Of a stretch of 50,285 nucleotides of DNA, positions 1-50,285 are shown one piece after another (within the stretch, counting starts at the first letter, position 1; each line of letters begins with the position of its first letter). The translations under genes and the position numbers were made by a program. Origin of the DNA: a virus (taxonomy: Duplodnaviria > Caudoviricetes); the IMG/VR virus record IMGVR_UViG_3300011253_000436, positions 1 to 50,285 of that record. One strand, 5' to 3'. Under the pieces are notes generated by a model. It saw nothing but the letters and a program-made list of their open reading frames with translations. It made no database searches and was not told where the DNA came from.

Positions 1-21
1 GCAACCTAAAAAGATTGCTAA
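1..21. repeat. 21-bp terminal direct repeat (circular assembly overlap), left copy
   Basis: gcaacctaaaaagattgctaa at 1-21 is identical to 50265-50285, and a reading frame runs through the junction. Confidence 0.95.
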
Positions 22-2137
22 GAAAACGGCACAATATAGAAACAAAGGCGGGCTTATGTCTTCTAGCGACGATCTAGTACAAGAAAAAAACGAAGGCGGC
101 TTAGTGTCCGACACTTCTCCTAGAATGGAACGAGCAAGAGAAGCTAAGGAAGAAAGACAGGCATTAGGTGTACCAGAAGACACTACAGTCCAAGACGCAG
201 CTTACTTTGCGGCTTCTTTAGCCCCTGTTACGGGAGAGGCTATTGCTGCAAAAGAGGCACTAGAAAGTTTTGAAAAAGGGGACTACGGCATGGCTACATT
301 GTCTGCCGCCGGAGCCATCCCCTTATTAGGTATGCCCGCACGAGTTGCGGCTAAAGCACTTAAAGCTCCTAAATGGTTTAAGGCATCTGATTCTGTTCCT
401 GACAACATACCGGCTCCTGAAAAAGCACAACTTACTCAAATAAACACTAAGATTTACGATAAAGTAGACTCTTACTTTTCTAAAAATAACACAAAAGGAA
501 AGACACTAGACTACGGTGCAGGGCATGGACATGGGGCTTCTATACTAAAAGCGGACAGCTACGAGCCATTTCCAAAGGATAGATTTGTAGGAGGAAAACC
601 TACATTTTCTTCTAGTGCGGACATACCAAGTGAATCCTACGACAAAATAGTAAACACTTATGTTCTAAACGTAGTTCCTAAAGACGTTAGAGATGGGCTA
701 GTTTCTGAGATGGGTAGAGTACTTAAACCCGGAGGCGAAGCAGTCATAGTCACTAGAGGGACAGATGTATTTGGCTCCAAAGCCCGTCCTGTAAAAGCGG
801 CGCTAGGACCTGAAGACGGTTCTGTAATACTAGCTAAAGGAACCTACCAAAAAGGGTTTACTCCAACTGAATTAAAGGAGTACACTTCCGATATTTTAGG
901 TGAAGGGTTTACTGTAGATATAGTAAATACTTCGGGGACTAGCCCCGGAATTAGATTGACTAAAGCCATAGAAAAACACAAAGGTGGACTTATGTACGGC
1001 AACAAACAAAATAAAAAAATGCATGGCGGGGGCCACGCAAAGAAAGACTATTCAAAATACAAAAAGATGAATATGGGCGGTTACACTGGTGGTATGACTC
1101 AGGCAATGGGGATGAATCCTATGTTTGATGAAACCGAAGAGATGCCACAAATGAACTGCGGTGGGTACATGGGAGGCGGTATGATGTCCGCTGACGTTAT
1201 TGTAGGTATCGACCCTGTTAGTGGCAACGAAATCCCGCTAGGCTCAGACGCTGAGAATGTTAGAGACGATATTCCTGCTATGCTTTCTGAAGACGAATAC
1301 GTCCTTCCGGCTGACGTAGTTAAATGGCATGGTCTAAAGCATATTCAAGAAATGCACGACGAAGCGTCTATGGGTCTAATGTCAATGGCTATGGACGGCC
1401 TTGTGGCTACTGGAGAGCCTGCTGTAAAATCTAAAGATGCAGAGAAAGTTAAGCAAGAATACCGTACTGAAAAGGGATCTAGAAAGACTCCTGAAGGTGT
1501 GGAAGTAGAGCTAACTGCTTACGAAGTAGAAGATAATGCAGATTTAGAAAAAGAAGACGATTCAAAATACAAGTCTAAAGTAAAAGGCAACATGAAAGAG
1601 TATGGTAAGGGTGGTCTTTTAGGCTACGCTGAAGGTGGCCTTGTAGACGACGAAGACCCAGACCCGTATGGTGATTTACTAGACGATGGCTTTGAGTTTG
1701 ATGCTGACATGATGAATGCTGAGATGCTTGAAGAAGTAGCTGCGGAGCAACGTGCTAGAGACAAAGAGCTAGAGCCATATATGCGAGAAGAAAGTCTCAG
1801 TGAAGAAGATGCTGCTGATCTATTTGATGTAGACGAAGACGCGGGCGTTATTGACGTTCCTGATGGCGGTATGGATACTACTCCAGTGTCAGAAGACGAA
1901 GAAATCTCAGAAGACAAAGTAAATAAAGTAGCTGCTGCATTACTAAAGCAAGCAAGCTCATACAGTGGTAGTGGCTCAGAAGGTGCAGCATTTATGTCTG
2001 GCCTAGGCAACGGTGTTAAGATGGCCGAGCTAGGAAAGAAAGTAGGCGACCAGTTAGCTGACTACGAAACTAAAAGTGGTAACAATCCGTTTGGATTCTT
2101 ACGAGACGACAAAGGCTTTTTCCGAAAAAGGGGTTAA
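1..2137 (+). CDS. 3' part of an origin-spanning 777-aa multidomain protein (start at 50068): pre-toxin-TG-like segment, class I SAM methyltransferase, DDIPAMLS domain, acidic tail
   Basis: Codons 2-55 (QPKKIAKKTAQYRNKGGL) are open and in frame with both ATG 50068 and ATG 56. Motifs: LDYGAGHG (SAM motif I), YDKIVNTYVLNVV, GTYQKGF, VRDDIPAMLSEDEYVLPADVV. Lies between portal and scaffold. Confidence 0.8.
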   Translation, partial: QPKKIAKKTAQYRNKGGLMSSSDDLVQEKNEGGLVSDTSPRMERAREAKEERQALGVPEDTTVQDAAYFAASLAPVTGEAIAAKEALESFEKGDYGMATLSAAGAIPLLGMPARVAAKALKAPKWFKASDSVPDNIPAPEKAQLTQINTKIYDKVDSYFSKNNTKGKTLDYGAGHGHGASILKADSYEPFPKDRFVGGKPTFSSSADIPSESYDKIVNTYVLNVVPKDVRDGLVSEMGRVLKPGGEAVIVTRGTDVFGSKARPVKAALGPEDGSVILAKGTYQKGFTPTELKEYTSDILGEGFTVDIVNTSGTSPGIRLTKAIEKHKGGLMYGNKQNKKMHGGGHAKKDYSKYKKMNMGGYTGGMTQAMGMNPMFDETEEMPQMNCGGYMGGGMMSADVIVGIDPVSGNEIPLGSDAENVRDDIPAMLSEDEYVLPADVVKWHGLKHIQEMHDEASMGLMSMAMDGLVATGEPAVKSKDAEKVKQEYRTEKGSRKTPEGVEVELTAYEVEDNADLEKEDDSKYKSKVKGNMKEYGKGGLLGYAEGGLVDDEDPDPYGDLLDDGFEFDADMMNAEMLEEVAAEQRARDKELEPYMREESLSEEDAADLFDVDEDAGVIDVPDGGMDTTPVSEDEEISEDKVNKVAAALLKQASSYSGSGSEGAAFMSGLGNGVKMAELGKKVGDQLADYETKSGNNPFGFLRDDKGFFRKRG

Positions 2138-2156: not shown

Positions 2157-2191
2157 GGGCTACCCGCGATAGCAACACCATTGTGGCCCCC
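2157..2191 (+). promoter_or_regulatory. RNA hairpin with CUAC/CC internal loop directly upstream of the scaffold RBS
   Basis: GGG-CUAC-CCGCGAU-(9 nt loop)-AUUGUGG-CC-CCC. Confidence 0.55.
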
Positions 2192-2207
2192 AATAGGTAA
2201 AATCAAC

Positions 2208-2993
2208 ATGGCTAAATATCAAGGAGCATACCGCTCTGAAAAAGAACAACCGGAGCAAGTTAACGTAGCGGAACGACAAGAACCCGCAGCTACTTCGGTT
2301 GAGGAAGAAACATTTAAAAAACGCTACTCAGATTTACGACGGCACTCACAGGCAAAAACAGATGCTGCCGAGGCCGAAGCTAAAAAGCTGAAAGCTCAAC
2401 TAGATGCTGCGACTAAGAAACAAATTAAGTTTCCTAAAACAGACAAAGAGATTAGCGAATGGGTAACAAAATACCCAGACGTAGCAGGAATAATCGACAC
2501 CATAGCACAACGCAGAGCGTTAGAGGCTACGGGTCAAGTAGAAAAGAAAATGGATAGTCTTCGTAAATTAGAGACTAAGATCCATAAAGACAAAGCAGAA
2601 ACGCATCTAAAGGCTATGCACCCTGACTTCGATAAGATTAGACAGGATAAAAAATTCCACGTTTGGGCAGAACGACAGCCTAAATGGGTACAAGAAGCCT
2701 TATATGCAAATGACACTGATGCACTAGCCGCAGCTAGAGCTATTGATTTATACAAAGCTGATTTAGAAAAGTCAATGGCCGCAGCCAAGAAACGAAATAA
2801 AGGCAACAGTGCCGCAGAGTCAGTAACAAGAACTTCAAGTGCTTCACCTAGATCTTCCACTAATAATGGAAGCTGGAGTGAATCAAAAGTACAATCGCTT
2901 ACATCTCAGCAGTTTGATGAGTATGAAGCGGAGATCGAGAAAGCCATTCGCTCTGGCTCTTTCGATTACGATCTTTCTGGTGGAGCTAGATAG
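2208..2993 (+). CDS. Capsid scaffolding protein
   Basis: Coiled-coil protein with EETFKKRYSDLRRH and HPDF motifs, immediately upstream of the capsid gene. ATG 2208 follows an AGGT RBS and is preferred over TTG 2181. Confidence 0.75.
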   Translation: MAKYQGAYRSEKEQPEQVNVAERQEPAATSVEEETFKKRYSDLRRHSQAKTDAAEAEAKKLKAQLDAATKKQIKFPKTDKEISEWVTKYPDVAGIIDTIAQRRALEATGQVEKKMDSLRKLETKIHKDKAETHLKAMHPDFDKIRQDKKFHVWAERQPKWVQEALYANDTDALAAARAIDLYKADLEKSMAAAKKRNKGNSAAESVTRTSSASPRSSTNNGSWSESKVQSLTSQQFDEYEAEIEKAIRSGSFDYDLSGGAR

Positions 2994-3196: not shown

Positions 3197-4264
3197 ATGG
3201 CATTTAATAAAGCAACGGGCCACGGAAATCTACCTAACGGTAACTTCTCGCCTGTCATTTATTCTCAGAAAGTCCAAAAGGCTTTCCGCAAGTCTTCTGT
3301 TGTTGAAGACATTACTAACACTGATTACATGGGTGAAATTGCTAACTTTGGCGACTCAGTTAAAATTATCAAAGAACCTGAAATTTCAGTAAGCTCTTAC
3401 GCTCGCGGCACTCAGATCCAAACTCAGGATCTAGACGACAGCGAGTTTTCATTAAACATCGACCAAGCTAACTACTTTAGCTTCAAGATGGATGACATCG
3501 AAAACGCTCACTCACACGTTAACTTCATGGATATGGCAACTGATCGTGCTGGTTACAAATTGCGTGACACTTTCGATTCAGAAGTATTAGGTTACGCTTC
3601 TGGTTACGCTAAAGGTGCAGACGGCGTTTGGGCAGTTAACACTGCTACTAACGGTGTTGCAGCTAGTTCTACTGCGGGTACGGATGAGTTATTGGCTGCT
3701 AACAAGCTAGAAGAAGCTACTTTTGGTGGTTCTACTGGTGCAGGTACGGCAATCAAGTTGTCTAACGGTACAGACACTGCGGGTTTCGCTTCTCCATTAG
3801 AAGTTTTGAACCGTATGGCTCGTATTATGGATGTTAACAATATCGACACTGAAGATCGTTGGTTTGTTGCTGATCCTGTGTTCTTCGAGCGTTTAATGGA
3901 CGAAGGTTCTAAGTTTGTAAGTGCAGACTTTAACTTGTCTATGGACGGCGACGGCATTATTGCTAACGGTCGAATCGGTAACGGTTTAATTCGTGGCTTT
4001 AAAATCTACAAGTCTAATAACTTACCTTTCTTGGGTACTGGTCCCGGCACTGAGAGTGACACTGCTAGTTCCTCTAACTTTGGTGTTGTTGTTGCTGGTC
4101 ATCAATCTGCTATTGCTTCTGCACAGCAAATTGACAAGACTGAAACTTATCGTGACCCTGACAGCTTCGCTGACATCGTTCGTGGTATGCAATTGTACGG
4201 TCGCAAGATTCTTCGTCCAGAAGCTCTTGTTACTGCTCGATACCAACTTGCTGCGTCTGCATAA
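3197..4264 (+). CDS. Major capsid protein
   Basis: GNLPNGNFSPVIYSQKV, EDITNTDYMGEI..GDSVKIIKEP and RDPDSFADIVRGMQLYGRKILRPEAL motifs; strong AAGGAG RBS; biased codon usage. Confidence 0.92.
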   Translation: MAFNKATGHGNLPNGNFSPVIYSQKVQKAFRKSSVVEDITNTDYMGEIANFGDSVKIIKEPEISVSSYARGTQIQTQDLDDSEFSLNIDQANYFSFKMDDIENAHSHVNFMDMATDRAGYKLRDTFDSEVLGYASGYAKGADGVWAVNTATNGVAASSTAGTDELLAANKLEEATFGGSTGAGTAIKLSNGTDTAGFASPLEVLNRMARIMDVNNIDTEDRWFVADPVFFERLMDEGSKFVSADFNLSMDGDGIIANGRIGNGLIRGFKIYKSNNLPFLGTGPGTESDTASSSNFGVVVAGHQSAIASAQQIDKTETYRDPDSFADIVRGMQLYGRKILRPEALVTARYQLAASA

Positions 4265-13114: not shown

Positions 13115-16100
13115 ATGGCAGTAACTTGGAGTTATCCACAAAGTAGTGTAAGAGGTCCCGGCGGTTCGGAGAGAACCACTTCGGCCCCTATGACAGGTAC
13201 ATGGACTTCTGACACCAGAACAACTGAAGCGGGAACCCCATACACTATTCCGGGGTTCACTAGAAGCAAAACTATAAAGTACATCAAGCCATACGCCAAA
13301 ATGGGTGCACCGTACTATTACCCGGACCATACGCAAGCCGCACAAGGTAGGGCAGATTTAACTGCGGAGTATGAACAATACGCCCTAAGTTTCGCGCAAC
13401 AAGCCGAACAAGGGGACCTCGGAACCGCAGTCGCTAATGCCGCTCAGGCAACTATAGAAAATCAAGACTTCCTAGCCGGACAAACTCAAGAGTTCATAGA
13501 CCAAGAAACAATTAGCCCAAACGAAACTAACCAGTTCTTTGAAGATATAGCTGCCGCGTACAATCCCGGTGAGAATCGTGGAGATTTCTACGATAGAAGT
13601 GTGGCAGATCAGCAGACCTCTTTGGATTATTATCAATCGCAGACAGGCTTCGAGGCAGGTAATCTAGACGCTACTGTACAAGGCCAAGTGCAAATTAGAG
13701 ACGACATTTTAAATCAAACTGTCTCCCTAGCATCACAAGATGTAGCTAACGCATTGACTCTTTTAGGGGCTATGGGAATAGACACTTCTACTATGGAAGC
13801 GGTGACTAATCCGGACGGTACTATTAGCTACACTACTCCAGAAGGACAGGATCTAAGCTCAGTTATCTCTGCCCTAGGTACATCTTTAGGGACAAAAATA
13901 GACGAAGCTGGTGCAGCCAACCTAGCAGCATTAGGTTACGGTGGAGAAGGTCAAGACGATCTATTCACAGACATAGGTAGAATCCAAACTACACTAGGCT
14001 CAGGCTTAGATATGAGTGCAGTTACTGGTGCAGTTAGTAAAGGCTTTACGGATCAACAGTCCTACCTTTCCGGTCAGTTCGGGGACATTGCAGGTGATAT
14101 TTCTGGAGTAGGCGGACAGGTAACTGACGTACAAGCTACTGTAGACGCGGTAGAGACTGCGGTGGGTGCGCTAGATACCCGTCAGCTAGACATGGTTACT
14201 AAACTAGATAACTTAGGTGTAGATACTGACGCAATTATCGCCGCAGTAGACGCAGTACAAACTACGGTAGACCCTCTAGGTGCTAGGGTTACAGACTTAG
14301 CGCAAGACACTGCTCGAGGTATCTCAGGCTTAGGTGGCGACGTTTCGGATCTTTTCGGCGGCCAAGACACCACTTCACAAGTAGTCGATGCAGTATCTAC
14401 TCGACTGTCTTCGGATTTAGGCGTAGGAGACTCTAGCTTGTCTTCTATTGCATCTAGTATAGCTACTGTAGGCGAAGCTCAGACAGACGACCAGAAAGTA
14501 TTGGTAGACCAGATTGGTCGAATACAGACTGGCGTTACCAATATGGATAACGCAATAAAAACTAACATCGACGACGAGTTTAAAAACTTAATGACGGTGT
14601 TTGATTCAAATGGTCAGTTAATTACTGATTTTACTAACGCTGCCGGAGAAGAAGTAAAGGCTCAGTTAAACGATGACGGTACTTTAGTAGTATCTACTTT
14701 AACTCAATTAGGGACGGACGTAGGTAACATAGATCTTTCTAGTTTAGATACTATGAAAACCTCTATTGACGCTGCTGCCAGTTCCTTTGATACTGCCGAA
14801 AGTGCGTTAGGCTCTTTTACTTCTTTTGAGACTAAAAGTGCCAATGACCGAAAAGCCGTACTGGATGCTATTAAGGCAGATAGTACTGCGTTAGATACTT
14901 TAATTAGCACTGGTATACCTCAAACTATTAGCACAGGTTTAGCGGACTATAAGTTAGAAGTTGGAGCTAACGATGAGCTTTTAATTAGTAACCTAGCTGA
15001 AGCAGTAGGATTCGACCAAAGTGATGTGGCTTCTGCAACTGCTGCTGCTGTAGGATTTAACCAAAGCAATTTAGTAAGCGCCTTAGACACTGCGGTTGCA
15101 TACGACAGTGCGGCCTTAGTAAGTGCCATTGGCTTTGACCCAACTCAACTTACTTCCGACATTGCTTCTTCGGTAGGGTACAGCCCTAATGCTCTATTAG
15201 ACAAGATTGAACTACTCCAACCTGAAGTATTAACTACTCAAGATTTAAGTAACCTTAGTACGCTGACTGTAGGCGACTTACCTACAGCAGGCTCTATTGC
15301 GGAGGCAGTTAGCTACGATCCGGTAGACTTACTGGCTAAAATAGCCTCTGGTCGTCCAGAAACTTTAACTACAGATGACCTAACGGCACTAAGTACATTA
15401 ACTGTAGAGGACTTGCCTGTAGCTCCTACTACCACAGAAATTGCAGGTGCAGTGAAGTTTGATCTCAATAAACTAGAAACTAACTTAGCTAATGGCGCTT
15501 TAGATGTCGATGACCTATCTGCGTTAAGCACCTTAACTGTAGACGATTTACCTACTGCGGGAGAAATTGCAGGGCAGGTAGACTACGACCCAGAAGATCT
15601 CCTAGCTAAAATTAAATTAGGTCAACCAGAAGTATTAACTCAAGAAGACCTGTCTGTACTTAGCACATTAACTGTAGAGGACTTACCTATAGCCCCTACT
15701 GCTGCTGAAGTTGCCACCGCAGTTGATTACAATCCTACTGAGTTAACTAGCGACTTTACCACTGCTATCACAGACAGCCAAGAGGCACTATCGGAGTTAC
15801 AAGCAGGACAGACTACTACTATAAAGGGTGCGATTGGTACTTACCAAGCTGCGGTAGACGACGAGGGTACTCTTTTAGTATCTGCGTTTAACAATCTAGA
15901 TGGCTCTATTATCGCCTTAGATACAGAAGTAGGTAACATAGATGTTAGCAGCTTAGATACTATCCTAAGTGGCGTACAAGCTATCCCAACTACTGCCCTA
16001 TCGGCTCAACAAGTAACTGACGCTGTAGGGTACAACGCACAGGATCTGTTAGATTCTATCGCCGAAGATGCTTTAACTGACGCAGATTTAGTTAACCTAA

Positions 16101-17236
16101 GTACTCTTACCTTAGATGATATTCCGGCAGCAGGGGAAATTGCCGGAGCAGTTAACTACGATCCTGACGCTTTGATGACTCGTATTAAAGCCGGTAAAGC
16201 CGACGACCTTACCGCAGAGGATCTAACTGCGTTAAGCACTTTAACTACAGACGATTTATCTGATTTAGCGACTCAGGATCTACTAGGTAAAACTTTTGCG
16301 ACTGCTACCCAAGCTAACGCTTCAGTACAAACATCGCTAGGCCCTATAAGCGGAATCAGCACTAACATAGATAATCTACTATCCGCTGCGGACGCTGATG
16401 CTACTGCAAACAGCTTGCGGGATAATGCTATTGCAGATTCTCGCCAAGATGTATTGACCGCGTTGAGCCAAGATGAAGGGGCTATGCGGGCTTTGTTTAG
16501 CCAACAGACTGTGGACATACAAGGTGAGCTAGGGGACTACAATGTACGCATAGACAGCGAAACAGGGAGCATAGTAGCCAGCCAACTAAGCACACAGACC
16601 AGTGATATGTCTGGGCTTATAGACACCGCTACGGGCACTTTACTTGAAGATTCTGCTACTGGCCTCACTGCGTTAGAGCAGGACATTCTAGATAGCAAAA
16701 ACGATCTATACACTACGCTTAACACTTCCTTCACTAACGAAGGCGAATTAATCACTAATGCAATAAACGCTAACGGTGACGATATAACAAGAGTATTAGA
16801 CGATCAAGGTACTCTTACGGAGACCATAACAGACGTAAATGGCATAGTTCAGGATACCGTAGTAACTAACCTCAGCAGTATAATGGACGACACTGGTAGA
16901 ATTAACACTACTGCGCTTGAGATTGCCGCTGATACAAACGCTGAAAGCATATTTAGTACAATGAAAGAAGTATTCGACGATCAAGGCCTACTGAAGACCG
17001 AAGAGTACGATAGGTTTAACAACTTAATTGTTCGGGAGTTTGACGAAAATAACGATATACTAGAGCGGTACTACAACGCAGACGGTACTTTATCTAGTGA
17101 AAGGATACTTGGACTAGAAGAGCTACTGTCTTCTCTTTTCCCAGCCGCTCCTTTGGCAGAAGCTGGGGAACTGACCGGCGCTGACAGAAGATTCCTACAA
17201 GGATTTAGAACGCAAGGCTTGATGTCAGGCGTATAA
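13115..17236 (+). CDS. Large acidic repeat-containing protein, probably virion-associated
   Basis: 1373 aa, rich in D/T/A/S/L with few basic residues; ~15-aa and ~45-aa internal repeats. Confidence 0.65.
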   Translation: MAVTWSYPQSSVRGPGGSERTTSAPMTGTWTSDTRTTEAGTPYTIPGFTRSKTIKYIKPYAKMGAPYYYPDHTQAAQGRADLTAEYEQYALSFAQQAEQGDLGTAVANAAQATIENQDFLAGQTQEFIDQETISPNETNQFFEDIAAAYNPGENRGDFYDRSVADQQTSLDYYQSQTGFEAGNLDATVQGQVQIRDDILNQTVSLASQDVANALTLLGAMGIDTSTMEAVTNPDGTISYTTPEGQDLSSVISALGTSLGTKIDEAGAANLAALGYGGEGQDDLFTDIGRIQTTLGSGLDMSAVTGAVSKGFTDQQSYLSGQFGDIAGDISGVGGQVTDVQATVDAVETAVGALDTRQLDMVTKLDNLGVDTDAIIAAVDAVQTTVDPLGARVTDLAQDTARGISGLGGDVSDLFGGQDTTSQVVDAVSTRLSSDLGVGDSSLSSIASSIATVGEAQTDDQKVLVDQIGRIQTGVTNMDNAIKTNIDDEFKNLMTVFDSNGQLITDFTNAAGEEVKAQLNDDGTLVVSTLTQLGTDVGNIDLSSLDTMKTSIDAAASSFDTAESALGSFTSFETKSANDRKAVLDAIKADSTALDTLISTGIPQTISTGLADYKLEVGANDELLISNLAEAVGFDQSDVASATAAAVGFNQSNLVSALDTAVAYDSAALVSAIGFDPTQLTSDIASSVGYSPNALLDKIELLQPEVLTTQDLSNLSTLTVGDLPTAGSIAEAVSYDPVDLLAKIASGRPETLTTDDLTALSTLTVEDLPVAPTTTEIAGAVKFDLNKLETNLANGALDVDDLSALSTLTVDDLPTAGEIAGQVDYDPEDLLAKIKLGQPEVLTQEDLSVLSTLTVEDLPIAPTAAEVATAVDYNPTELTSDFTTAITDSQEALSELQAGQTTTIKGAIGTYQAAVDDEGTLLVSAFNNLDGSIIALDTEVGNIDVSSLDTILSGVQAIPTTALSAQQVTDAVGYNAQDLLDSIAEDALTDADLVNLSTLTLDDIPAAGEIAGAVNYDPDALMTRIKAGKADDLTAEDLTALSTLTTDDLSDLATQDLLGKTFATATQANASVQTSLGPISGISTNIDNLLSAADADATANSLRDNAIADSRQDVLTALSQDEGAMRALFSQQTVDIQGELGDYNVRIDSETGSIVASQLSTQTSDMSGLIDTATGTLLEDSATGLTALEQDILDSKNDLYTTLNTSFTNEGELITNAINANGDDITRVLDDQGTLTETITDVNGIVQDTVVTNLSSIMDDTGRINTTALEIAADTNAESIFSTMKEVFDDQGLLKTEEYDRFNNLIVREFDENNDILERYYNADGTLSSERILGLEELLSSLFPAAPLAEAGELTGADRRFLQGFRTQGLMSGV
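15000..16262 (+). repeat. Intragenic protein repeats: ~15-aa AVG(F/Y)D units, then six ~45-aa LTxxDLxxLSTLTxxDLP units
   Basis: Read directly from the translation. Confidence 0.8.
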
Positions 17237-20391: not shown

Positions 20392-20953
20392 AAAGTATGC
20401 CGCAATAGACGGCCCTATCCCCGGCGAAAACTTAATCTCCGACGAAAGAAACTACCCTTGGAGAAGAGCACCTGACTACGCAGATCTAAACGATGCTATG
20501 GAATTTCTCATAGATAGCATATCAGAGAAGCCTAAGTTATTTGCAGTTTTAAATGCGCTAGAAAATGAAATAACAGTGGCTCAGTTTTCTCAGACAATAG
20601 TAATGAGTGCCATGACTCAAGGTAGATTTACCTTAGACTTTGCCCTTCTTTTAGCGGGGCCTCTAGCCAAGTACATCTCTATATTAGCTGAAGGCTACGA
20701 CGTAGATTATGACATGGGCGTAGAAGAAGAGTACACATTCTATCCTAAACAACTTGTGGATGCTTCTCAGTTAGATTTCGATACTGAAAAAGAAATGAGT
20801 ACCATCACTGAAGACGAAGAAGAAGACGTTAATGAAGAGGCCAGAGAAGGTTTGATGATGGCTATGAGAGAAGAGCCTGCTGAAGTAGCCTCTGAGGAAG
20901 AACAAGACTCCATGTTGGGGTATAACAAAGACGAAGACGAGGAGTTAGTATAA
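20381..20953 (+). CDS. Conserved phage virion protein
   Basis: DGPIPGENL...YPWRRAP motif; located among the internal virion genes. Confidence 0.6.
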   Translation: MRNKKYAAIDGPIPGENLISDERNYPWRRAPDYADLNDAMEFLIDSISEKPKLFAVLNALENEITVAQFSQTIVMSAMTQGRFTLDFALLLAGPLAKYISILAEGYDVDYDMGVEEEYTFYPKQLVDASQLDFDTEKEMSTITEDEEEDVNEEAREGLMMAMREEPAEVASEEEQDSMLGYNKDEDEELV

Positions 20954-23112
20954 TGGCTGCACCAGACGTATATTCAAGTTTTATGAGCGGGTTCTCCGAG
21001 TCATACGGCATGGCTTCTAAAATGAAAAGTGAAAGAGAAAAGAGCGCCTTAACTAAAGCTGCCACATTGGTATCTGGGGTAGACGATTGGAAAGAGGTCA
21101 AAGCTGACCGAGATCTTATGTTGACTCAAGCTCAACAGATGGTGGAAGAGTTAGATTTAAGCAAGGACGGCACTAACGCTGCTCTAAAAGAAGTATATAA
21201 AAGACTAGAGGCCAACCAAACTTCAAAGGAAAGATACAAAGTAGTTAAGGAATCCCTAGTAGATTCTGGAACTACCTCCTTTAGCCTAGATCCGAATTAT
21301 AAACCAGAAGAAACTGAAGTGGATGCCCAAACAGAAGAGGCTATTCCGGGAGTTAAAAACCCAGATAACCAACTTACTCCAGAGAAAAAGGAAGTAGTGG
21401 ACACTGGGCTAGGTAAAGTAGTAGAAGAGAGAGACGTACCCGATAACACTGAAAAAGGCTCGAAAATAAGTAAGTTTCTAGGTCTGTTCGATGGGCAAGG
21501 TAGGATAGATGCTCGTGCATTAGAAGTAGCCTCGGATGCTGTAGGGGGTGATGACATCCTTTCTGAATACAGAGCGTATCAAACTACAGGGAAGCTACCT
21601 ACTCTAGCTGAGTTTGCGGATTTACCTGACGACGTTTCTATTGTTGTAGGCTACTCAACGCCTCTAGGTAAGGGTTGGACAGTGGAGAAAATAGCAAAAG
21701 ATTTAGGTACTGCTGAACAGGCTCACGCTTTCCTAGCTACCTTAAAAGGCCCTGAACATGAAAAGGCTAGGAAGTATCTGGTCGAGTACGCAGCTAGCGT
21801 AAAAGATTCGAATAGCCTATACAATATATCTATGGGGGTGACTAAGCCTGACGAAATTAGGAATGCGGCATTGTTCGAAGCTAAAGTAGAAGCCGGTATA
21901 CTTCGTGCTACCGATGGGAAGCCTAATTTAGATACTTTCGGTGGTATTTTCAAGGCTTGGGAGAAAGCAGATAGAGAAATAGGCCTAAGTTACGCGGATA
22001 GCACTAAAGGTAAACTGCTTGCCGGAGCCACCACTCCAGTACTGGCGGAACAAGCTAGAGGGCAGATAGACTCATTAGTAGCAGCAGGCGAGCTTACAGA
22101 AGAGGAGGGGGTAGACTTAGACACCACCCTCTCCGATCTAAAAGAAAGTATGATTAAAGTTAAATCCGCCGAGGCAGAAGCTACTAAAAATCCTACTTCG
22201 TATGTAGACAGAAAGAAAGCTAACATAATACTAGCAGACGGCACTGCTGTAGGTGTAGGTAGCATAGACACCAATGGTGATTTCAGATTACATGGAAAGA
22301 AACTGGAAACCACCGTTAACGGGCAGTCTTATTTTGCAGTGAGCGACGACGAGCTTTCTCGTTTTGATACCGTATCAAAGGAGATTAAAGGTTTTAATAC
22401 TAAGTTACAGGGCCTTAACAGCGCCTTAGTTAGAATGAATAAAATGTCGAAGCTAGTTGAGAGGACGGGGGGTGATGTACTTACAGAAGCAGCAGGAATA
22501 TCCCAAGGCCTTACTATGTTCTCTAAGTCTATGGATTTCTTCCTTGAAGCAGGGCTGTCCGGTAACGGTCCTATCGACATAAAAAATGTGTACACCGGTA
22601 TGGATGGAAATACACAAGGAATAATCACGGATATGCTAGGGTTGGAAATCCCCAAGCTAAGTGCGGATGCAGCTAGGTTTGCTTCCCTTAAAATACAGGC
22701 GGCATATGCCTTAGCTCAGGCACTTGGGCAGGAAGGTAAAGGTCTTTCGGATACGGATTTAGCTTTGCAGCTAAAATCTATAGCAGGCACAAGCAACCCT
22801 GCTGCGTTTCAGGATATGCTCCACAGTATAGTGGATAATGTATATAAAGGAGTAAGGACGGAGAAGAAGGCCTACTTGGATAAATTTAAAAGTAATTTCA
22901 TTAGAAGTGAATTAGTAGACCTACAGCCCCAGATAAAGGATGACTATATCCGATCAACTTTAGCTCCTTCTAGCCAGACTTACTTGGATGCGGCATTAGC
23001 TTATACCGCAGGAACCGAAGCTATTACCCCTGTCACTGACCCTAAAGAAGAGACCAAAGACGAGCTAGACGCAAGGCTCAGAGCCAAATATGGGCTACCC
23101 CCGAAAAGCTAA
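20953..23112 (+). CDS. Putative internal virion protein
   Basis: 719 aa helical protein with an SFMSGFSE N-terminus; position before the largest internal protein. Confidence 0.6.
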   Translation: MAAPDVYSSFMSGFSESYGMASKMKSEREKSALTKAATLVSGVDDWKEVKADRDLMLTQAQQMVEELDLSKDGTNAALKEVYKRLEANQTSKERYKVVKESLVDSGTTSFSLDPNYKPEETEVDAQTEEAIPGVKNPDNQLTPEKKEVVDTGLGKVVEERDVPDNTEKGSKISKFLGLFDGQGRIDARALEVASDAVGGDDILSEYRAYQTTGKLPTLAEFADLPDDVSIVVGYSTPLGKGWTVEKIAKDLGTAEQAHAFLATLKGPEHEKARKYLVEYAASVKDSNSLYNISMGVTKPDEIRNAALFEAKVEAGILRATDGKPNLDTFGGIFKAWEKADREIGLSYADSTKGKLLAGATTPVLAEQARGQIDSLVAAGELTEEEGVDLDTTLSDLKESMIKVKSAEAEATKNPTSYVDRKKANIILADGTAVGVGSIDTNGDFRLHGKKLETTVNGQSYFAVSDDELSRFDTVSKEIKGFNTKLQGLNSALVRMNKMSKLVERTGGDVLTEAAGISQGLTMFSKSMDFFLEAGLSGNGPIDIKNVYTGMDGNTQGIITDMLGLEIPKLSADAARFASLKIQAAYALAQALGQEGKGLSDTDLALQLKSIAGTSNPAAFQDMLHSIVDNVYKGVRTEKKAYLDKFKSNFIRSELVDLQPQIKDDYIRSTLAPSSQTYLDAALAYTAGTEAITPVTDPKEETKDELDARLRAKYGLPPKS

Positions 23113-26100: not shown

Positions 26101-26663
26101 AGAAGCTGAGGATTATGTTTGCTGACGACCCTCAGTACGTTGAAGGGTTAGGGGCTTTAGCTACATTTATACGAGACCAGCAGAAGGTAATGCAGTCTGC
26201 TAAATCTGCATCAGGTAGGTCTGATACAGCAGAAGCCGCAGCCAGAACTGGGACTATAGCTCAGATAGCAGCCTTAACTACTACAATAACCGCTACTTTA
26301 GGTAGGCTAAACCGTAAGGCTGCGGTAGCAGGTAACATAGGCGGCGGTATCATAAGAGGGAAAGCAGATGAAGTACTTAGCGATCCAGACGTTGCTAGGA
26401 TATTTGGGCAGCTAATAATGGACCCTCAGCTATTCTCTAGCACCTTGAAGTCTATTCGCCAGAAAGAGTTAGTCTCAAAGGTAGTTAACGTAGAGACCTT
26501 AGTAGGCATACTGACCGCAGGTATACGAGGTAACATATTCGGTGGCAATGCGGAGGCTCTAAGCCAAGAAGAACTGACTGCCCTTGCTATGCAACTGTCG
26601 GATGACATTGAAGCAGATCCAGATACTACAGACCAACAAACAGAAGAGGCACTTAGCAAGTGA
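23133..26663 (+). CDS. Putative large internal virion protein
   Basis: 1176 aa helical protein; podovirus ejection-protein position. Confidence 0.6.
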   Translation: MSTKKEQDIQELLNRYASTGDEDYLTLAKDLDAAMGTVEPPKELPTPTIGMYEGMTMEQQQGLFKQYQDDPRVRKTGPLGLPVGEDTFLGELAFVDAEGQSYKVPEPTAGKVAGTEVDFRPDTATVVGQTMLRNVPANAADTIGTLFRVAGQSLKEQEDQSALGGAVGSGLNTVGDALTGFADAIPKVKAGDDISDSVTVGLTEFGSGGVFVAGLLKNLSGTMVKNTGKVIAVETGGVSTLGVDVDDGIVVGEDSLVGLDLDPFGANEEGISTDQKILRQKLNLAVDGSGFAKTLEGAIAVAPKVVNFIGGTLRTVLKSPTKEGMQEGVVKDLVDTIASVNPEPGSNIVTHRQILDEVIRYLDEGDPSTVKILLDEGEDQVELVLNTLQTLERNPAFSDATRQQIRNMMDGVRGRAEVQVSEAKQVSQLESAVTDKATTLGKEGTSPRGTAEALTGAAREGDLATGVKELEQLEAAKAGAESKVAEEILQGLDAVPTTKLQEIIASAKKMGIVGLQNLKNKTQEQVSESLFNTWVSMTTRKDELFSNVKGGDISDPEGVETLINALDKVEGLDPQNALKAKTGIQETQLEKLIALKKPRVLEAATEDTPEVVETAEEVAERLVEFFRNNSEFDLGYFFREIRPQLAQQVDSILGPNGPINKDAAIPMRSFIQFLDSQMDSLAKQGDEVGVAAKEAMEYFKGPYATYWRDGPLKDLGNLYRQTSTISKGKEAVEEAVDEASGQMPLGIADEAAGDPTVAVKQPVTQAEETIRSVQEIISSPERYLSFEQVAKLMDEAGEGAGDLHDLVYVDLISSLQVALKTQEAGTSTVPALLERVRQYASTLMKSDPQKAQQLDSLLDSLADNTLDVAQLSRKIEDARVAAKSNQEEALDGVLGPFLRRQGLDVAPTAKPREALNRVLQSTELVELEDLVAAARATGNPKVLKGIQSEYLKLLRDKIFVKGGATAAKGRKASLAQIETGFDDPRGLMGEKLRIMFADDPQYVEGLGALATFIRDQQKVMQSAKSASGRSDTAEAAARTGTIAQIAALTTTITATLGRLNRKAAVAGNIGGGIIRGKADEVLSDPDVARIFGQLIMDPQLFSSTLKSIRQKELVSKVVNVETLVGILTAGIRGNIFGGNAEALSQEELTALAMQLSDDIEADPDTTDQQTEEALSK

Positions 26664-47443: not shown

Positions 47444-49651
47444 ATGCCTATAATTGAAAAGCCACAAAGCTCACAAGATTTAGAGATAGACATTGACTCT
47501 ATTACGGACGAACTGTTCGCCCTAGAAAAAGAAGACAATGAAAAGTACGGCAATCTAGAAGGTTGGATTAGAGACCGTTTCAGTGCTGCTTCAGAGAAGC
47601 GTGATAGCGACGAACAGCGTTGGCTACAAGCATATAAGAACTATCGAGGTGTGTACGGTGACGACGTTAAGTTTACCGACGCTGAGAAGTCTCGTGCCTT
47701 CATTAAGATCACCAAGACCAAGGTACTAGCTGCTTACGCTCAGATTGTAGACGTTTTGTTTGCAGGTTCCAAGTTTCCTATTGCAATCAACCCTACAAAG
47801 AATCCTATCAGTGACTCTCCTAGTGCTGTCTATTTCGATCAGACAGAGCTTACTGAAGAAAACATTGCATCTAAAGTACCTAACCCTGCTACCGGCAAGC
47901 CGGAAAAGACTGAGCCTAAAGGGCAAAAGAATAACCGAGCCAGACCTTCTCGTCTTGACGACCTTGGTCCTTACTCTGAATCTTTATCCAGAGTTGGTGA
48001 CGATCTAAATGTAGGCTACGGACAGACCCCCACATCCGCTACTTTTGAGCCTTTAGTTAAAGCTGCTCGAAACATGGAGACTCGTATACACGATCAACTA
48101 GAAGAAAGTGAAGCATCTAAACACCTTCGTAATACTTCTTTTGAAATGTGTTTGTTTGGTACAGGTATTCTTAAAGGTCCTTTTGCCTTTGACAAAGAGT
48201 ACCCACGATGGACAGAAGAAGGGGATTACGATCCTATCTACGAAACCGTACCTCGTGTAGAGTCTGTTTCTATTTGGGATATTTACCCTGACCCTGACGC
48301 ACATAATATGTCTGAGGCAGAGTACGTTATTCAACGTCATCGTATGTCTCGTTCTCAATTACGAGCACTTAAAAAGCGCCCATACTTTATAGACGATGTT
48401 ATCGAAGAGTCTATTCAAATGGGGCCTTCGTACAACTCAGAGTATTGGGAAGACGTACTAGAAGACAACGAAGTTACTAACCAAACTAACCGCTACGAAG
48501 TGCTAGAGTACTGGGGCGTATTAGATTCAGACTTAGCAGAAGAAGCAGGTTTAGATATACCGGCTAAACTAGCAGATAAAGATCAAGTCCATATTAACGC
48601 ATGGGTGTGTAACGGTAAGATACTACGATTAGTTCTTAATCCATTTACACCTTCTCGTATTCCGTATCACGCAGTCCCTTACGAACTAAACCCCTACTCT
48701 TTCTTTGGTATCGGTGTAGCTGAGAATATGGAAGACACCCAGTTACTTATGAATGGCTTCATGCGTATGGCTATTGATAACGCTGCTCTATCATCCAACT
48801 TACTTATTGAAGTAGATGAAACTAATTTGATTCCCGGCCAAGATATGTCTATATATCCGGGTAAGATATTCAGACGACAAGCAGGCGCTCCGGGACAGGC
48901 TATATTTGGCACTAAGTTCCCTAACGTAACTAACGAGTGTATTGCTATGTTTGATAAGACTCGTCAGCTTGCAGATGAATCTACCGGCATACCTTCGTAC
49001 TCTCATGGTATGACTGGTGTTATGGGCGTAGGCCGTACTGCTTCTGGTATGTCTATGCTTATGGGTGCAGCAGCACAGAACATTAAGGCTGTTGTACGAA
49101 ACATAGATGACTATCTATTAGGTCCTTTGGGTAAGAGTTTCTTTGCATTTAATATGCAGTTTAAGTTTGACCCTGACGCTAACGGGGATCTAGATGTAGA
49201 AGCTCTAGGTACAGAATCTTTGATGCGTAATGAGATTCGCTCTCAGAAGTTAATGCAGTTTATGCAGACTGCCCAGAATCCTAATATGGCTCCTTACGTT
49301 AAGTACGATTACGTTCTTCGTGAGATTGCAGCCTCTATGGATTTAGATGAAGATAAGATTCTAAACGACCCTAGGGAAGCAGAGATCCAAGCTAAGATGT
49401 TAGCGGACTATCAGAAGGTACTCATGGAGAATCAACCAGAGAAACCTGAAGCGCCAGAAGGACAGCAAGATCCTGCTGCAATACTAGCGGCTCTTATGGG
49501 TGCTCAAGGTGGTCAAGGTGCTCCTCAAGGAGGCCCACCACCCGTATCTGATCCAACAGGTATAGGCGGCCAAGTACAGCCCGGTGCTGCTCCAGAACCC
49601 GGTGCTGCTGGCTTTTCTGCTAACACTGGTGAAGGACAAGCTCCTCAGTAA
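47444..49651 (+). CDS. Portal protein
   Basis: 735 aa after TerL; FIKITKTKV, GTGILKGP, YPDPDA, FFGIGV and RTASGMSML motifs; P/Q/G-rich tail. Confidence 0.9.
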   Translation: MPIIEKPQSSQDLEIDIDSITDELFALEKEDNEKYGNLEGWIRDRFSAASEKRDSDEQRWLQAYKNYRGVYGDDVKFTDAEKSRAFIKITKTKVLAAYAQIVDVLFAGSKFPIAINPTKNPISDSPSAVYFDQTELTEENIASKVPNPATGKPEKTEPKGQKNNRARPSRLDDLGPYSESLSRVGDDLNVGYGQTPTSATFEPLVKAARNMETRIHDQLEESEASKHLRNTSFEMCLFGTGILKGPFAFDKEYPRWTEEGDYDPIYETVPRVESVSIWDIYPDPDAHNMSEAEYVIQRHRMSRSQLRALKKRPYFIDDVIEESIQMGPSYNSEYWEDVLEDNEVTNQTNRYEVLEYWGVLDSDLAEEAGLDIPAKLADKDQVHINAWVCNGKILRLVLNPFTPSRIPYHAVPYELNPYSFFGIGVAENMEDTQLLMNGFMRMAIDNAALSSNLLIEVDETNLIPGQDMSIYPGKIFRRQAGAPGQAIFGTKFPNVTNECIAMFDKTRQLADESTGIPSYSHGMTGVMGVGRTASGMSMLMGAAAQNIKAVVRNIDDYLLGPLGKSFFAFNMQFKFDPDANGDLDVEALGTESLMRNEIRSQKLMQFMQTAQNPNMAPYVKYDYVLREIAASMDLDEDKILNDPREAEIQAKMLADYQKVLMENQPEKPEAPEGQQDPAAILAALMGAQGGQGAPQGGPPPVSDPTGIGGQVQPGAAPEPGAAGFSANTGEGQAPQ

Positions 49652-49887
49652 TGGATACTAATGTAGCACGTTCAGTCTTACCTTTCGTAAACGATGTCCA
49701 TCACTATGAGGGATTCTTATCTTACGTAGAGTGTAGACTAGACATTCTCCGTAGCTTCTTAGAAAAAGAAAAAGATATAGACAGAATACGAGAGATTCAA
49801 GGTTCTATAGCAGAACTCAAGCGGCTTCGTACATTGAGAGATGAGGTACGGGGAACCTTAGAGAACGAGAGAAAACATGGCAGCTAA
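49651..49887 (+). CDS. Small helical protein downstream of the portal
   Basis: IREIQG.I..LKRL..LRDEV motif; TAATG coupling. Confidence 0.7.
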   Translation: MDTNVARSVLPFVNDVHHYEGFLSYVECRLDILRSFLEKEKDIDRIREIQGSIAELKRLRTLRDEVRGTLENERKHGS

Positions 49888-50068
49888 AAAGAAAGCTAAG
49901 TCTACCGTAAACGCAGCAGGCAACTACACTAAGCCTACGATGCGTAAGACTCTTTTTAATAAGATAAAAGCTAGTACTAAGGGCGGTAAGGCGGGACAGT
50001 GGTCCGCTAGAAAAGCCCAGATGTTAGCTAAACAGTACAAAGCTAAAGGCGGGGGCTACAAGTCGTAA
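49877..50068 (+). CDS. Small Lys-rich protein (DUF5872-like)
   Basis: NYTKPTMRK..KGGKAGQWSARKAQMLAKQYK.KGGGY. Confidence 0.75.
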   Translation: MAAKKKAKSTVNAAGNYTKPTMRKTLFNKIKASTKGGKAGQWSARKAQMLAKQYKAKGGGYKS

Positions 50069-50285
50069 TGGCCTTAAAGAAATCACAAAAGTCTTTAAAG
50101 GATTGGACAGACCAAGATTGGAGTACTAAGTCTGGTAAAAAGTCTTCTGAGACTGGAGAAAGGTATTTACCTAAGTCTGCTATAGATTCCCTTAGTTCGC
50201 AAGAGTATGCAGCTACTACTAAGAAGAAACGAGACGACAGTAAGAAAGGTAAACAACACTCTAAGCAACCTAAAAAGATTGCTAA
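50068..50285 (+). CDS. 5' part of the origin-spanning polyprotein: basic domain MALKKSQKSLKDWTDQDW...TGERYLP...
   Basis: TAATG-coupled ATG at 50068; no stop to the window end; continues through the overlap into ORF 56-2137. Missed by the ORF track. Confidence 0.8.
   Translation, partial: MALKKSQKSLKDWTDQDWSTKSGKKSSETGERYLPKSAIDSLSSQEYAATTKKKRDDSKKGKQHSKQPKKIA
50265..50285. repeat. 21-bp terminal direct repeat, right copy
   Basis: Identical to 1-21. Confidence 0.95.

What the first reader, a model, noticed from the sequence alone, without database searches (positions are those of the whole stretch)
1..2137. Origin-spanning 777-aa polyprotein punctuated by xxGG(L/Y) motifs: candidate processed, capsid-loaded cargo system
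Seen: joining the ends fuses ORF 50068 (84 aa up to ATG 56) in frame to ORF 56-2137. Eight similar motifs occur: RNKGGL (~38-55), KNEGGL (~86-103), KHKGGL (~974-991), KMHGGG (~1020), MNMGGY (~1070), MNCGGY (~1155), YGKGGL (~1600) and YAEGGL (~1625). They fall at boundaries between unrelated modules: basic peptide | pre-toxin-TG-like segment + methyltransferase | Met-rich linker | DDIPAMLSEDEYVLPADVV domain | acidic tail. The gene sits between portal and scaffold. Knowledge: that slot often holds maturation proteases or MuF cargo proteins, and Gly-Gly is the recognition site of adenoviral and Ubl-type proteases. Inference: the GG motifs are cleavage or prohead-loading signals that release separate effectors, possibly with the DDIPAMLS domain as the processing or targeting module.
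Basis: partly seen in the sequence, partly recalled or inferred. Interest (0 to 1): 0.8.

Follow-up and report, generated by a model that had tools for sequence, protein, structure and literature searches.

The report
Modular cargo protein of marine phage
The gene after the portal gene of this ocean phage encodes one long protein built from swappable enzyme modules joined by short Gly-Gly motifs to a conserved, unannotated domain, most likely a protein packed into the phage head and delivered to the host; cleavage at the motifs is not shown.

Summary
The window is a circular-type virus record with an exact 21-nt end overlap. With the overlap removed, ATG 50068 reads in frame into 56-2137, giving 777 aa. 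All eight listed motifs are where stated. GG+hydrophobic occurs 10 times against 2.2 expected.

The phage is HMO-2011-type. The gene order TerL-portal-78-aa gene-[this gene]-scaffold-like gene-capsid gene recurs in 80 related virus contigs.

The constant part is a ~75-aa domain (core DDIPAxLSxGEYV) preceded by a nearly invariant GG. It has no Pfam family and no fold match, and it occurs in 2,715 protein clusters.

The part before it varies: cell-wall hydrolase, methyltransferase, ART-PolyVal, LPD23, DUF7178, L5-gp82-like, or nothing. Near-identical relatives, and contigs from other seawater studies, swap or lose cassettes at the KGGL|M joints. Where the gene is split in two, the GG motif often sits at the new protein ends.

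My reading is a polyvalent head-packaged cargo protein with a new anchor domain and GG joints. Cleavage is unproven, because I found no protease. The "pre-toxin-TG" label is not supported by Pfam.

The parts
50068..50285 (+). Start of the 777-aa ORF: small basic module (first 72 aa). It continues at window 22-55 once the 21-nt overlap is removed.
   Evidence: phrog_14910, E 4e-34, profile positions 1-72 of 80. It is a stand-alone ~80-aa gene in CRP-345 gp70 and HTVC115P gp43, which stop after ..YRRT. The start overlaps the stop of the upstream 63-aa gene as TAATG.
1..55 (+). End of the basic module, with GG joint 1 (RNKGGL, 38-55). Bases 1-21 repeat 50265-50285.
   Evidence: Six different right-hand partners follow this joint in relatives.
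56..103 (+). 16-aa remnant (MSSSDDLV|QEKNEGGL) of a ~100-aa module that is intact in relatives, with GG joint 2 (86-103).
   Evidence: P0003, P0007, P0009 and P0017 carry the full module between these two halves. A loose end at nt 80 in run X5 leads into another cassette.
104..388 (+).
   Evidence: Shared with P0003, P0006, P0015 and P0017 ahead of different domains. No Pfam family at E<=10. An alternative allele diverges at nt 201.
389..991 (+). Class I SAM-methyltransferase-like cargo domain, ending in GG joint 3 (KHKGGL, 974-991).
   Evidence: Pfam Methyltransf_23, E 9.7e-8, 32.3 bits against a cut-off of 27, on aa 149-256 of the 711-aa reading. The best partial PDB match is a phospholipid N-methyltransferase, E 1.7e-5. 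Stand-alone relatives exist in mycobacteriophages and a Microcystis phage.
992..1186 (+). Met/Gly-rich disordered linker with five GG motifs (1016-1033, 1067-1084, 1079-1096, 1151-1168, 1163-1180).
   Evidence: pLDDT is below 50 in the AF2 model. The last GG (MNCGGY) is >=90% conserved across 146 homologues.
1187..1417 (+). Conserved ~75-aa 'anchor' domain with core DDIPAMLSEDEYVLPADVV.
   Evidence: 2,715 clusters at E<=1e-3. Invariant G, P, G, DD, S, E, V, G, A. AF2 pLDDT 83-93. No Pfam family, no PDB sequence match and no fold match.
1418..1645 (+). Lys/Glu-rich segment with two GG motifs (YGKGGL 1601-1618, YAEGGL 1625-1642).
   Evidence: Mostly low confidence in the AF2 model.
1646..2137 (+). 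Acidic tail (34 D+E in 85 aa) followed by C-terminal helices. The ending ..PFGFLRDDKGFFRKRG is specific to this lineage.
   Evidence: The C-terminal ending is shared by 11 close relatives including the window protein.
47444..49651 (+). Portal gene (context).
   Evidence: Pfam SU10_portal, E 1.9e-31.
49651..49887 (+). 78-aa helical protein that almost always precedes this gene (context).
   Evidence: tblastn finds it between portal and the anchor gene in most of the 59 loci that reach that far.
49877..50068 (+). 63-aa basic protein ending in KAKGGGYKS (context; it carries a GG motif at its own C-terminus).
   Evidence: phrog_17747, E 2.1e-35. The same ending occurs in CRP-13, CRP-345, HTVC115P and HMO-2011 homologues.
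2181..2993 (+). Scaffold-like gene, so labelled by position only (context).
   Evidence: phrog_13678, unknown function. It follows the anchor gene in 75 of 80 loci.
3197..4264 (+). Major capsid protein (context).
   Evidence: phrog_267, E 7.6e-63.

Best explanation
This is a polyvalent (multi-module) internal virion protein of an HMO-2011-type marine podophage. It has a constant half and a variable half.

The constant half is a GG motif, a ~75-aa anchor domain and an acidic tail. I infer that it incorporates the protein into the procapsid, because it is encoded between the portal and scaffold-like genes.

The variable half lies in front of the anchor. In this genome it is a small basic module, an adaptor segment and a class I SAM-methyltransferase. 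I infer that it is cargo released into the host with the DNA.

Short hydrophobic-x-x-G-G-hydrophobic motifs in disordered linkers are the joints between modules. Cassettes are gained, lost, swapped, fused and split in frame at these joints, which makes the locus a hypervariable effector slot.

Shown: the ORF, the motif enrichment, the conserved domain, the conserved gene order, the cassette variation and where its breakpoints lie.

Inferred: packaging into the head, delivery to the host, and the anchoring role of the domain.

Open: whether the joints are also cut (my estimate about 0.25) or act as docking peptides (about 0.2).
For: Gene order. TerL-portal-p78-[anchor gene]-scaffold-like-MCP recurs in 80 IMG/VR loci. 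The scaffold-like gene is seen in 75 of 80 and portal or p78 in 59 of 80; the rest are cut by contig ends.

Anchor domain. It occurs in 2,715 clusters in proteins of 135-1552 aa, at N-terminal, middle or C-terminal positions.

Cargo repertoire.
- Hydrolase_2 in 47 of 120 listed homologues, DUF7178 in 7, Methyltransf_23 in 3, L5_gp82 in 1.
- Among 51 long homologues: L5_gp82 in 8, Hydrolase_2 in 4, DUF6973 in 4, Methyltransf_23 in 3, ART-PolyVal in 2.
- In 9 separate upstream ORFs of split loci: LPD23 in 5, DUF7178 in 2.
- LPD23 and ART-PolyVal are named in Pfam as domains of polyvalent proteins. Passages of PMC5512222 describe phage polyvalent proteins as likely capsid-packaged.

Joints.
- P0004 goes straight from joint 1 to the sequence after joint 3. 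P0003, P0006, P0007, P0008 and P0017 exchange modules at the same joints.
- Contigs of two further studies (X5, X10) match the window up to nt 44 and again from nt 981, that is inside joints 1 and 3.
- In 252 homologues GG[LMFYIV] occurs 766 times against 310 +/- 19 in shuffles.
- In the 26 genuine split loci, GG+hydrophobic lies in the last 20 aa of the upstream ORF in 11 and in the first 25 aa of the anchor ORF in 6. Control head genes show 0 of 162 at the C-terminus and 8 of 162 at the N-terminus.
- Linkers are disordered and the anchor is confident in AF2.

Range. The domain is essentially confined to viral contigs: only 8 confirmed loci in 185,579 species genomes, all marine bins.
Against: - No virion proteomics or structure exists for any carrier, so packaging is inferred from gene position and from the kinds of cargo.
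- The window protein has only one recognised enzyme domain, so on its own it is a minimal polyvalent protein.
- The anchor model is not a compact fold and has no known relative, so 'anchor' is a role assigned by position and constancy.
- In 24 of 59 loci more than 400 nt lie between portal/p78 and the anchor ORF, usually holding a separate ORF (26 split loci). A covalent link to the anchor is therefore not required, and this reading does not explain how separate cargo is loaded.
- Two breakpoints (nt 80 and nt 201) are not at GG motifs.
- The methyltransferase substrate is unknown, and the (D/N/S)PP(Y/F) motif of DNA amino-methyltransferases (recalled) does not appear in the sequence.
Confidence: 0.6

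Rival explanations
1. One reading: the protein is a true polyprotein. A protease cuts at or next to the GG motifs after loading into the prohead and releases the basic peptide, the methyltransferase and the anchor as separate products, as T4 internal proteins are released from their targeting sequence.
For: - The motifs lie in disordered linkers at module borders.
- The GG next to the anchor is >=90% conserved in an otherwise variable linker.
- In split loci the natural protein ends lie within a few residues of a GG motif, so the modules can work as separate chains.
- Passages of PMC5512222 propose processing of polyvalent proteins.
Against: - No peptidase family was found in 28 window proteins scanned with PHROGs or 18 scanned with Pfam, and there is no HExxH in + strand ORFs of 80 aa or more. 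The minus-strand genes were not scanned.
- The motif logo has its hydrophobic residue three places before the first G. That fits neither the adenain consensus nor the double-glycine leader consensus as I recall them.
- Upstream proteins in split loci end 3-12 residues after GG, never at GG.
- There are no proteomic data.
Confidence: 0.25
2. The GG motif is a portable docking peptide. It binds a capsid-interior partner (capsid protein, scaffold, portal or the anchor domain itself). Any protein that carries it is then loaded, in the manner of encapsulin cargo-loading peptides: fused modules, separate cargo proteins with the motif at their C-terminus, and small basic proteins.
For: - The motif sits at the C-terminal end of separate cargo ORFs in 11 of 26 split loci, against 0 of 162 control ORFs.
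- It lies at the C-terminus of the 63-aa basic protein family in five phage lineages.
- It repeats three times in a 55-aa polybasic ORF of L007.
- It flanks the anchor on both sides in HMO-2011 gp49-type proteins.
- This reading would explain how unlinked cargo is packaged.
Against: - No binding partner is known.
- Pelagiphage HTVC115P carries the 63-aa protein with the motif but gave no match to the anchor domain, so the anchor is unlikely to be the only receptor.
- The motif is short and degenerate.
Confidence: 0.2
3. The motifs have no function of their own. They are inherited linker sequence: Gly-Gly hinges that tolerate in-frame recombination, gene fusion and gene fission, so breakpoints pile up there.
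For: - Breakpoints between repeats are what repeat-mediated deletion would give.
- Some breakpoints are not at GG (nt 80, nt 201).
- The frequent Met after GGL offers ready start codons for split genes.
Against: - Codons differ between copies (13 of 15 bases alike at joints 1 and 3), so DNA homology is weak.
- The same peptide pattern persists in distant homologues at about 55% domain identity.
- The GG next to the anchor is nearly invariant while its neighbours vary.
Confidence: 0.3
4. Assembly or annotation artefact: the 84-aa basic ORF is a separate gene, and the fusion comes from a lost stop codon or a false circular join.
For: In CRP-345 and HTVC115P the basic protein is a stand-alone gene that stops where the window reads ..YRNKGGL. 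The junction lies at the contig ends.
Against: - The fusion is present in 10 of 13 close relatives from several sources, and in contig L006, where it is internal.
- An independent contig (X9) crosses position 1 with no indel over 1-1587.
Confidence: 0.03

Closest known systems
Phage polyvalent proteins (Iyer, Burroughs, Anand, de Souza, Aravind 2017, PMC5512222; passages read)
   Same: Several unrelated modules sit in one chain, encoded among late genes of a portal-terminase phage. Signature domains occur at the same locus in relatives: LPD23, ART-PolyVal and the PF07486 hydrolase. The cargo is variable.
   Different: That paper does not mention HMO-2011. The constant anchor domain has no Pfam family. 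No MPTase-type processing peptidase is seen in the window protein. The GG joints are not described in the passages I read.
MuF / SPP1 gp7 minor head proteins and MuF polymorphic toxins
   Same: The gene sits directly after the portal gene and ahead of the scaffold and capsid genes. A constant head-associated part is joined to variable enzymatic parts.
   Different: There is no MuF Pfam match. Cargo is mostly N-terminal to the constant domain here, whereas in MuF toxins it is C-terminal (recalled).
P1 Dar system (DarB methyltransferase/helicase packed into the head) and T4 internal proteins with a capsid targeting sequence
   Same: Enzymes, including a methyltransferase, are loaded into the head and injected. 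In T4 a short targeting peptide is removed by the prohead protease (recalled; P1 processing is cited in PMC5512222).
   Different: No sequence relation was found. No prohead protease was found here. The methyltransferase is of the Methyltransf_23 type, not a recognised DNA methyltransferase.
Encapsulin cargo-loading peptides
   Same: Short Gly-rich peptides at cargo termini direct loading into an HK97-fold shell (recalled).
   Different: This is analogy only. No binding has been shown, the motif differs, and here it is often internal and repeated.

Membership tests
Polyvalent proteins (Iyer et al. 2017) | Two or more unrelated effector or enzymatic domains in one polypeptide | tested here: inconclusive
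   The window protein has one Pfam enzyme domain (Methyltransf_23), plus the phrog_14910 module, an adaptor segment and the anchor. Relatives such as CRP-3 gp36 carry Hydrolase_2, Methyltransf_23 and DUF7178 together.
Polyvalent proteins (Iyer et al. 2017) | Encoded among virion or late genes of a portal-terminase phage | tested here: met
   It lies between the portal and capsid genes in the window and in 80 related loci.
Polyvalent proteins (Iyer et al. 2017) | Signature domains (LPD families, ART-PolyVal, MPTase) | tested here: inconclusive
   None is in the window protein. LPD23 is in 5 of 9 upstream ORFs of split loci and ART-PolyVal in 2 of 51 long homologues. No MPTase was found.
Polyvalent proteins (Iyer et al. 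2017) | Packaged in the virion and delivered to the host | not testable with these tools
   This needs virion proteomics. None was found in the papers searched.
MuF (Phage_Mu_F) head proteins | MuF domain match | tested here: not met
   No Pfam match for the whole protein at E<=0.01, nor for the anchor or tail at E<=10.
Pre-toxin TG domain (PT-TG) | Match to the Pfam model | tested here: not met
   window:104-388 gave 0 families at E<=10. The resemblance rests on recall only.
Class I SAM-dependent methyltransferases | Match to a Pfam methyltransferase model above its cut-off, and a Gly-rich SAM-binding motif | tested here: met
   Methyltransf_23 scores 32.3 bits against a cut-off of 27, and Methyltransf_11 scores 21.7 against 21.2. 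The sequence shows LDYGAGHG and LKPGG. Activity and substrate were not tested.
phrog_14910 small basic phage proteins | Profile match over the full length | tested here: met
   E 4e-34 over profile positions 1-72 of 80. Here it is fused rather than free.
Prohead-protease-processed internal proteins (T4 type) | A phage-encoded prohead protease | tested here: inconclusive
   No peptidase family was found in 28 (PHROGs) and 18 (Pfam) window proteins. The minus-strand genes were not scanned, and many large ORFs have no family at all.
Adenain / Ubl-type Gly-Gly cleavage sites | Hydrophobic residue at P4 of (M/I/L)-x-G-G|x (consensus recalled) | tested here: not met
   In the logo of 1,545 GG sites in 252 homologues, M/F/Y sits three places before the first G (P5), while P4 is mostly A/N. 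No such protease was found.
Known protein folds (for the anchor domain) | Structural match of the domain-only model | tested here: inconclusive
   Foldseek against the PDB gave no match at E<=0.001. The best VIA-align score was Z 3.2 over the helix only. BFVD returned only homologues.

The most novel reading that the evidence does not exclude
The hydrophobic-x-x-G-G-hydrophobic peptide is a portable head-loading (and possibly release) tag of HMO-2011-type phages, and the ~75-aa domain is the hub that ties tagged proteins to the procapsid. Any module that acquires the tag becomes injectable cargo, whether it is fused, split off with the tag at its end, or a small basic DNA-coating protein. This would be a phage counterpart of encapsulin cargo-loading peptides. 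It would explain why one locus in one of the ocean's most abundant phage groups can shuffle effectors so freely.
Probability: 0.2. Interest if true: 0.85.

Novelty: new variant of a known kind. Interest (0 to 1): 0.62.

Why it matters
HMO-2011-type phages are reported as a dominant marine viral group (PMC9038755, abstract and passages read). The passages I read name several core genes of unknown function and do not describe this one.

The locus looks like the phages' variable effector slot. A conserved, unannotated domain is tied to a changing set of enzymes: cell-wall hydrolase, methyltransferase, ADP-ribosyltransferase and polyvalent-protein domains. Different cassette alleles coexist in seawater samples.

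The domain, present in 2,715 clusters, gives a handle for finding injected phage effectors and anti-defence enzymes in marine viromes, much as MuF does for prophage toxins.

If the GG motif proves to be a loading or release signal, it would be a short, transferable tag for putting proteins into phage heads.

Tried and rejected
- Complex prediction of portal with anchor domain: no answer. It counts neither for nor against binding.
- Fold searches: the 389-aa model gave only generic helical hairpins for the C-terminal helices (Z<=5.5) and nothing in Foldseek PDB. The domain-only model gave nothing.
- A PDB sequence search with the family profile gave only a chance-level row.
- ESM Atlas: the nearest named cluster for the anchor region is a crAss cargo protein domain at 0.84, below the level the tool calls a lead. 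The ~100-aa module of relatives gave only unnamed viral clusters, with no PDB match.
- I considered and rejected the idea that K/E-G-G-L-M is only the shadow of a ribosome-binding site plus start codon. Many copies are not followed by Met or Val, the motif keeps its peptide form with different codons, and the 63-aa family keeps its GGGY ending whatever gene follows.
- I rejected repeat-driven recombination as the whole explanation (see rivals).
- No protease was found.
- The HMO-2011 genome paper (PMC3732932) is not held. Supplementary tables of PMC9038755 and PMC5512222, which may list this orthologous group or its domains, could not be seen.
- Parts of the stretch without contig cover in runs X9 and X10 are not used as evidence.
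Full report
**1. The observation**

The first 21 bases of the window are identical to its last 21. The record is an IMG/VR virus record classed as having direct terminal repeats and as 100% complete. The product equals database protein P0005, which may stem from the same record.

Independent support comes from three sources:
- Ten of 13 close relatives have the same basic N-terminal module fused in frame to downstream modules.
- Contig L006 shows the same continuity internally.
- A contig from another study (X9) covers window 1-1587 with 56 substitutions and no indel, and runs past position 1.

All eight motifs are at the stated coordinates. Three more of the same type exist. GG followed by L/M/F/Y/I/V occurs 10 times against 2.24 +/- 1.41 expected, and 0 of 5000 shuffles reach 10. 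The codons differ among copies, so the repeat is at the protein level.

**2. What the genome is**

- TerL lies at 45587-47443.
- An SU10-type portal lies at 47444-49651.
- The major capsid protein lies at 3197-4264.

The nearest named phages are Roseobacter CRP phages and Puniceispirillum phage HMO-2011. The same slot holds CRP-3 gp36 (1,292 aa) and HMO-2011 gp49 (762 aa), both annotated as hypothetical.

In 80 IMG/VR loci the order is TerL, portal, a 78-aa gene, the gene with the conserved domain, a scaffold-like gene (phrog_13678, unknown function) and the capsid gene. The scaffold-like gene is seen in 75 of 80 loci and portal or p78 in 59 of 80; the rest are cut by contig ends.

**3. The constant part**

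A 77-aa stretch (window 1187-1417) finds 2,715 clusters at E<=1e-3, of which 2,035 are at E<=1e-10. The proteins are 135-1552 aa long, and the domain sits at the start, the middle or the end.

Alignments show invariant G, P, G, DD, S, E, V, G and A. The GG of MNCGGY, about 20 residues upstream, is >=90% conserved. A GG motif lies within about 30 residues upstream in 229 of 254 proteins.

AlphaFold2 gives the domain pLDDT 83-93. The model has two short strands, a short helix, an extended conserved stretch and a long helix. All the GG linkers fall below 50.

There is no Pfam family, no PDB sequence match and no fold match for the domain-only model. BFVD returns only homologues. In 185,579 species genomes only 8 loci were confirmed, all marine bins.

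**4. The variable part**

| Set examined | Families found |
|---|---|
| 120 listed homologues | Hydrolase_2 in 47, DUF7178 in 7, Methyltransf_23 in 3, L5_gp82 in 1 |
| 51 of the 69 homologues longer than 620 aa | L5_gp82 in 8, Hydrolase_2 in 4, DUF6973 in 4, Methyltransf_23 in 3, ART-PolyVal in 2 |
| 9 separate upstream ORFs of split loci | LPD23 in 5, DUF7178 in 2, no family in 2 |

Of the 59 loci that reach the portal or p78 gene:
- In 29 the anchor ORF abuts it (gap of 40 nt or less).
- In 6 the gap is 41-400 nt.
- In 24 the gap exceeds 400 nt, with separate ORFs between.

LPD23 and ART-PolyVal are Pfam's names for domains of polyvalent proteins. The passages I read of PMC5512222 describe such phage proteins as probably packed into capsids and injected, and they mention PF07486 among their domains.

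**5. The joints**

Near-identical relatives differ by whole modules:
- P0004 passes from joint 1 directly to the sequence after joint 3.
- P0003, P0006, P0007, P0008 and P0017 carry other modules between the same joints.

In seawater contigs of two further studies (X5, X10), similarity to the window stops at nt 44 and resumes at nt 981, inside joints 1 and 3. Whether other letters lie between is not known. Loose ends at nt 80 and nt 201 lead into the cassettes seen in P0006 and P0003. These two breakpoints are not at a GG.

In 252 homologues the motif is 2.5-fold enriched (766 against 310 +/- 19). Its logo is M/F/Y, A/N, E/K/H/C, G, G, L/M, M/A/V.

One search flagged 29 loci as split. Three of these (L066, L068, L080) are truncated portal genes, which leaves 26. 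Among these 26:
- The motif lies in the last 20 residues of the upstream ORF in 11.
- It lies in the first 25 residues of the anchor ORF in 6.
- It lies in either in 16.
- Control head genes show 0 of 162 at the C-terminus and 8 of 162 at the N-terminus.

**6. How it most likely works**

The gene position, the constant domain, the kinds of cargo (above all a cell-wall hydrolase, while the window has a separate endolysin) and the polyvalent-protein domains point to an internal virion protein. Its constant half mediates incorporation, and its variable half is delivered to the host. This is inference; no particle has been analysed.

The joints are real and conserved, but what they do is open. I found no protease. 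The motif does not fit the Gly-Gly protease consensus sequences as I recall them. The motif at the natural ends of separate cargo proteins and of small basic proteins would fit a docking tag. A plain hinge cannot be excluded.

**7. Other labels checked**

- The methyltransferase label is supported (Methyltransf_23 above its cut-off). The substrate is unknown.
- The 'pre-toxin-TG' label is not supported.
- The N-terminal 84 aa are a phrog_14910 protein that is a free gene in other phages. This module and its 63-aa neighbour lie in this slot in only 4 of 80 loci.

**8. Literature**

Searches for HMO-2011 together with structural, proteomic or cryo-EM terms returned no paper that treats this gene. 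I read passages of PMC6918029, PMC9038755 and PMC4819975.

Noticed in passing
window 49877-50068: A 63-aa basic protein (phrog_17747) ends in KAKGGGYKS. Homologues in CRP-13, CRP-345, HTVC115P and HMO-2011 keep a ..GGGY+ ending whatever gene follows.
   Followed up: partly
L007:5212-5379: A 55-aa polybasic ORF made of three tandem copies of KKKGYAKGGM followed by a Lys/Arg tail. It lies between p78 and the 63-aa gene of a relative.
   Followed up: no
L006:6060-6125 (window 1030-1090): In a 98%-identical contig the gene is split in two at an A-run just before MNMGGY. ORF1 ends ..KYKRKR, and ORF2 starts at an ATG that overlaps the stop (ATGA). Whether this is a real variant or an indel error is not settled.
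   Followed up: partly
L016:2423-5731: The 1,102-aa separate cargo ORF holds an LPD23 domain and an H-E-x-x-H string (..LHETQH..). It may be a metallopeptidase, but Pfam gave no peptidase family.
   Followed up: partly
window 2181-2993 and homologues in L010-L070: The scaffold-like protein always ends in ..Y-D-(L/I/M)-S-G-(G/A)-A-R, a conserved C-terminal peptide of unknown role.
   Followed up: no
relatives P0012, P0015, P0024, P0054; CRP-3 gp36 (L001:4642-8520): Linkers upstream of the anchor often carry an EF-hand-like D-x-D-x-D-G loop and Cys-rich runs (C-G-C-x3-C-x3-C). A CPEC..CEHC string follows the anchor in some. This suggests metal binding. The window protein lacks these features.
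   Followed up: no
window 13115-17236, 20953-23112, 23133-26663, 26660-28717: Four large + strand ORFs (1373, 719, 1176 and 685 aa) have no PHROG family and no meaningful Pfam family. They may be further internal or tail proteins.
   Followed up: partly
window 1259-1406: In run X5 the summed contig depth rises from about 40 to 360-500 over the anchor core, with loose ends at 1314 and 1348. Many other phages in that sample share this short conserved stretch.
   Followed up: no
window 56-79 / 80-103: The window keeps only the first 8 and last 8 residues of a ~100-aa module that relatives carry whole. The deletion ends lie at similar DDLV / (D/E)(D/G)IV strings.
   Followed up: partly
window 47444-49651 (C-terminal ~70 aa): The portal protein ends in a long Gly/Pro/Gln-rich tail with a conserved DPTG.GG..APG.APEPGA.GF stretch across 45 homologues.
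   Followed up: no
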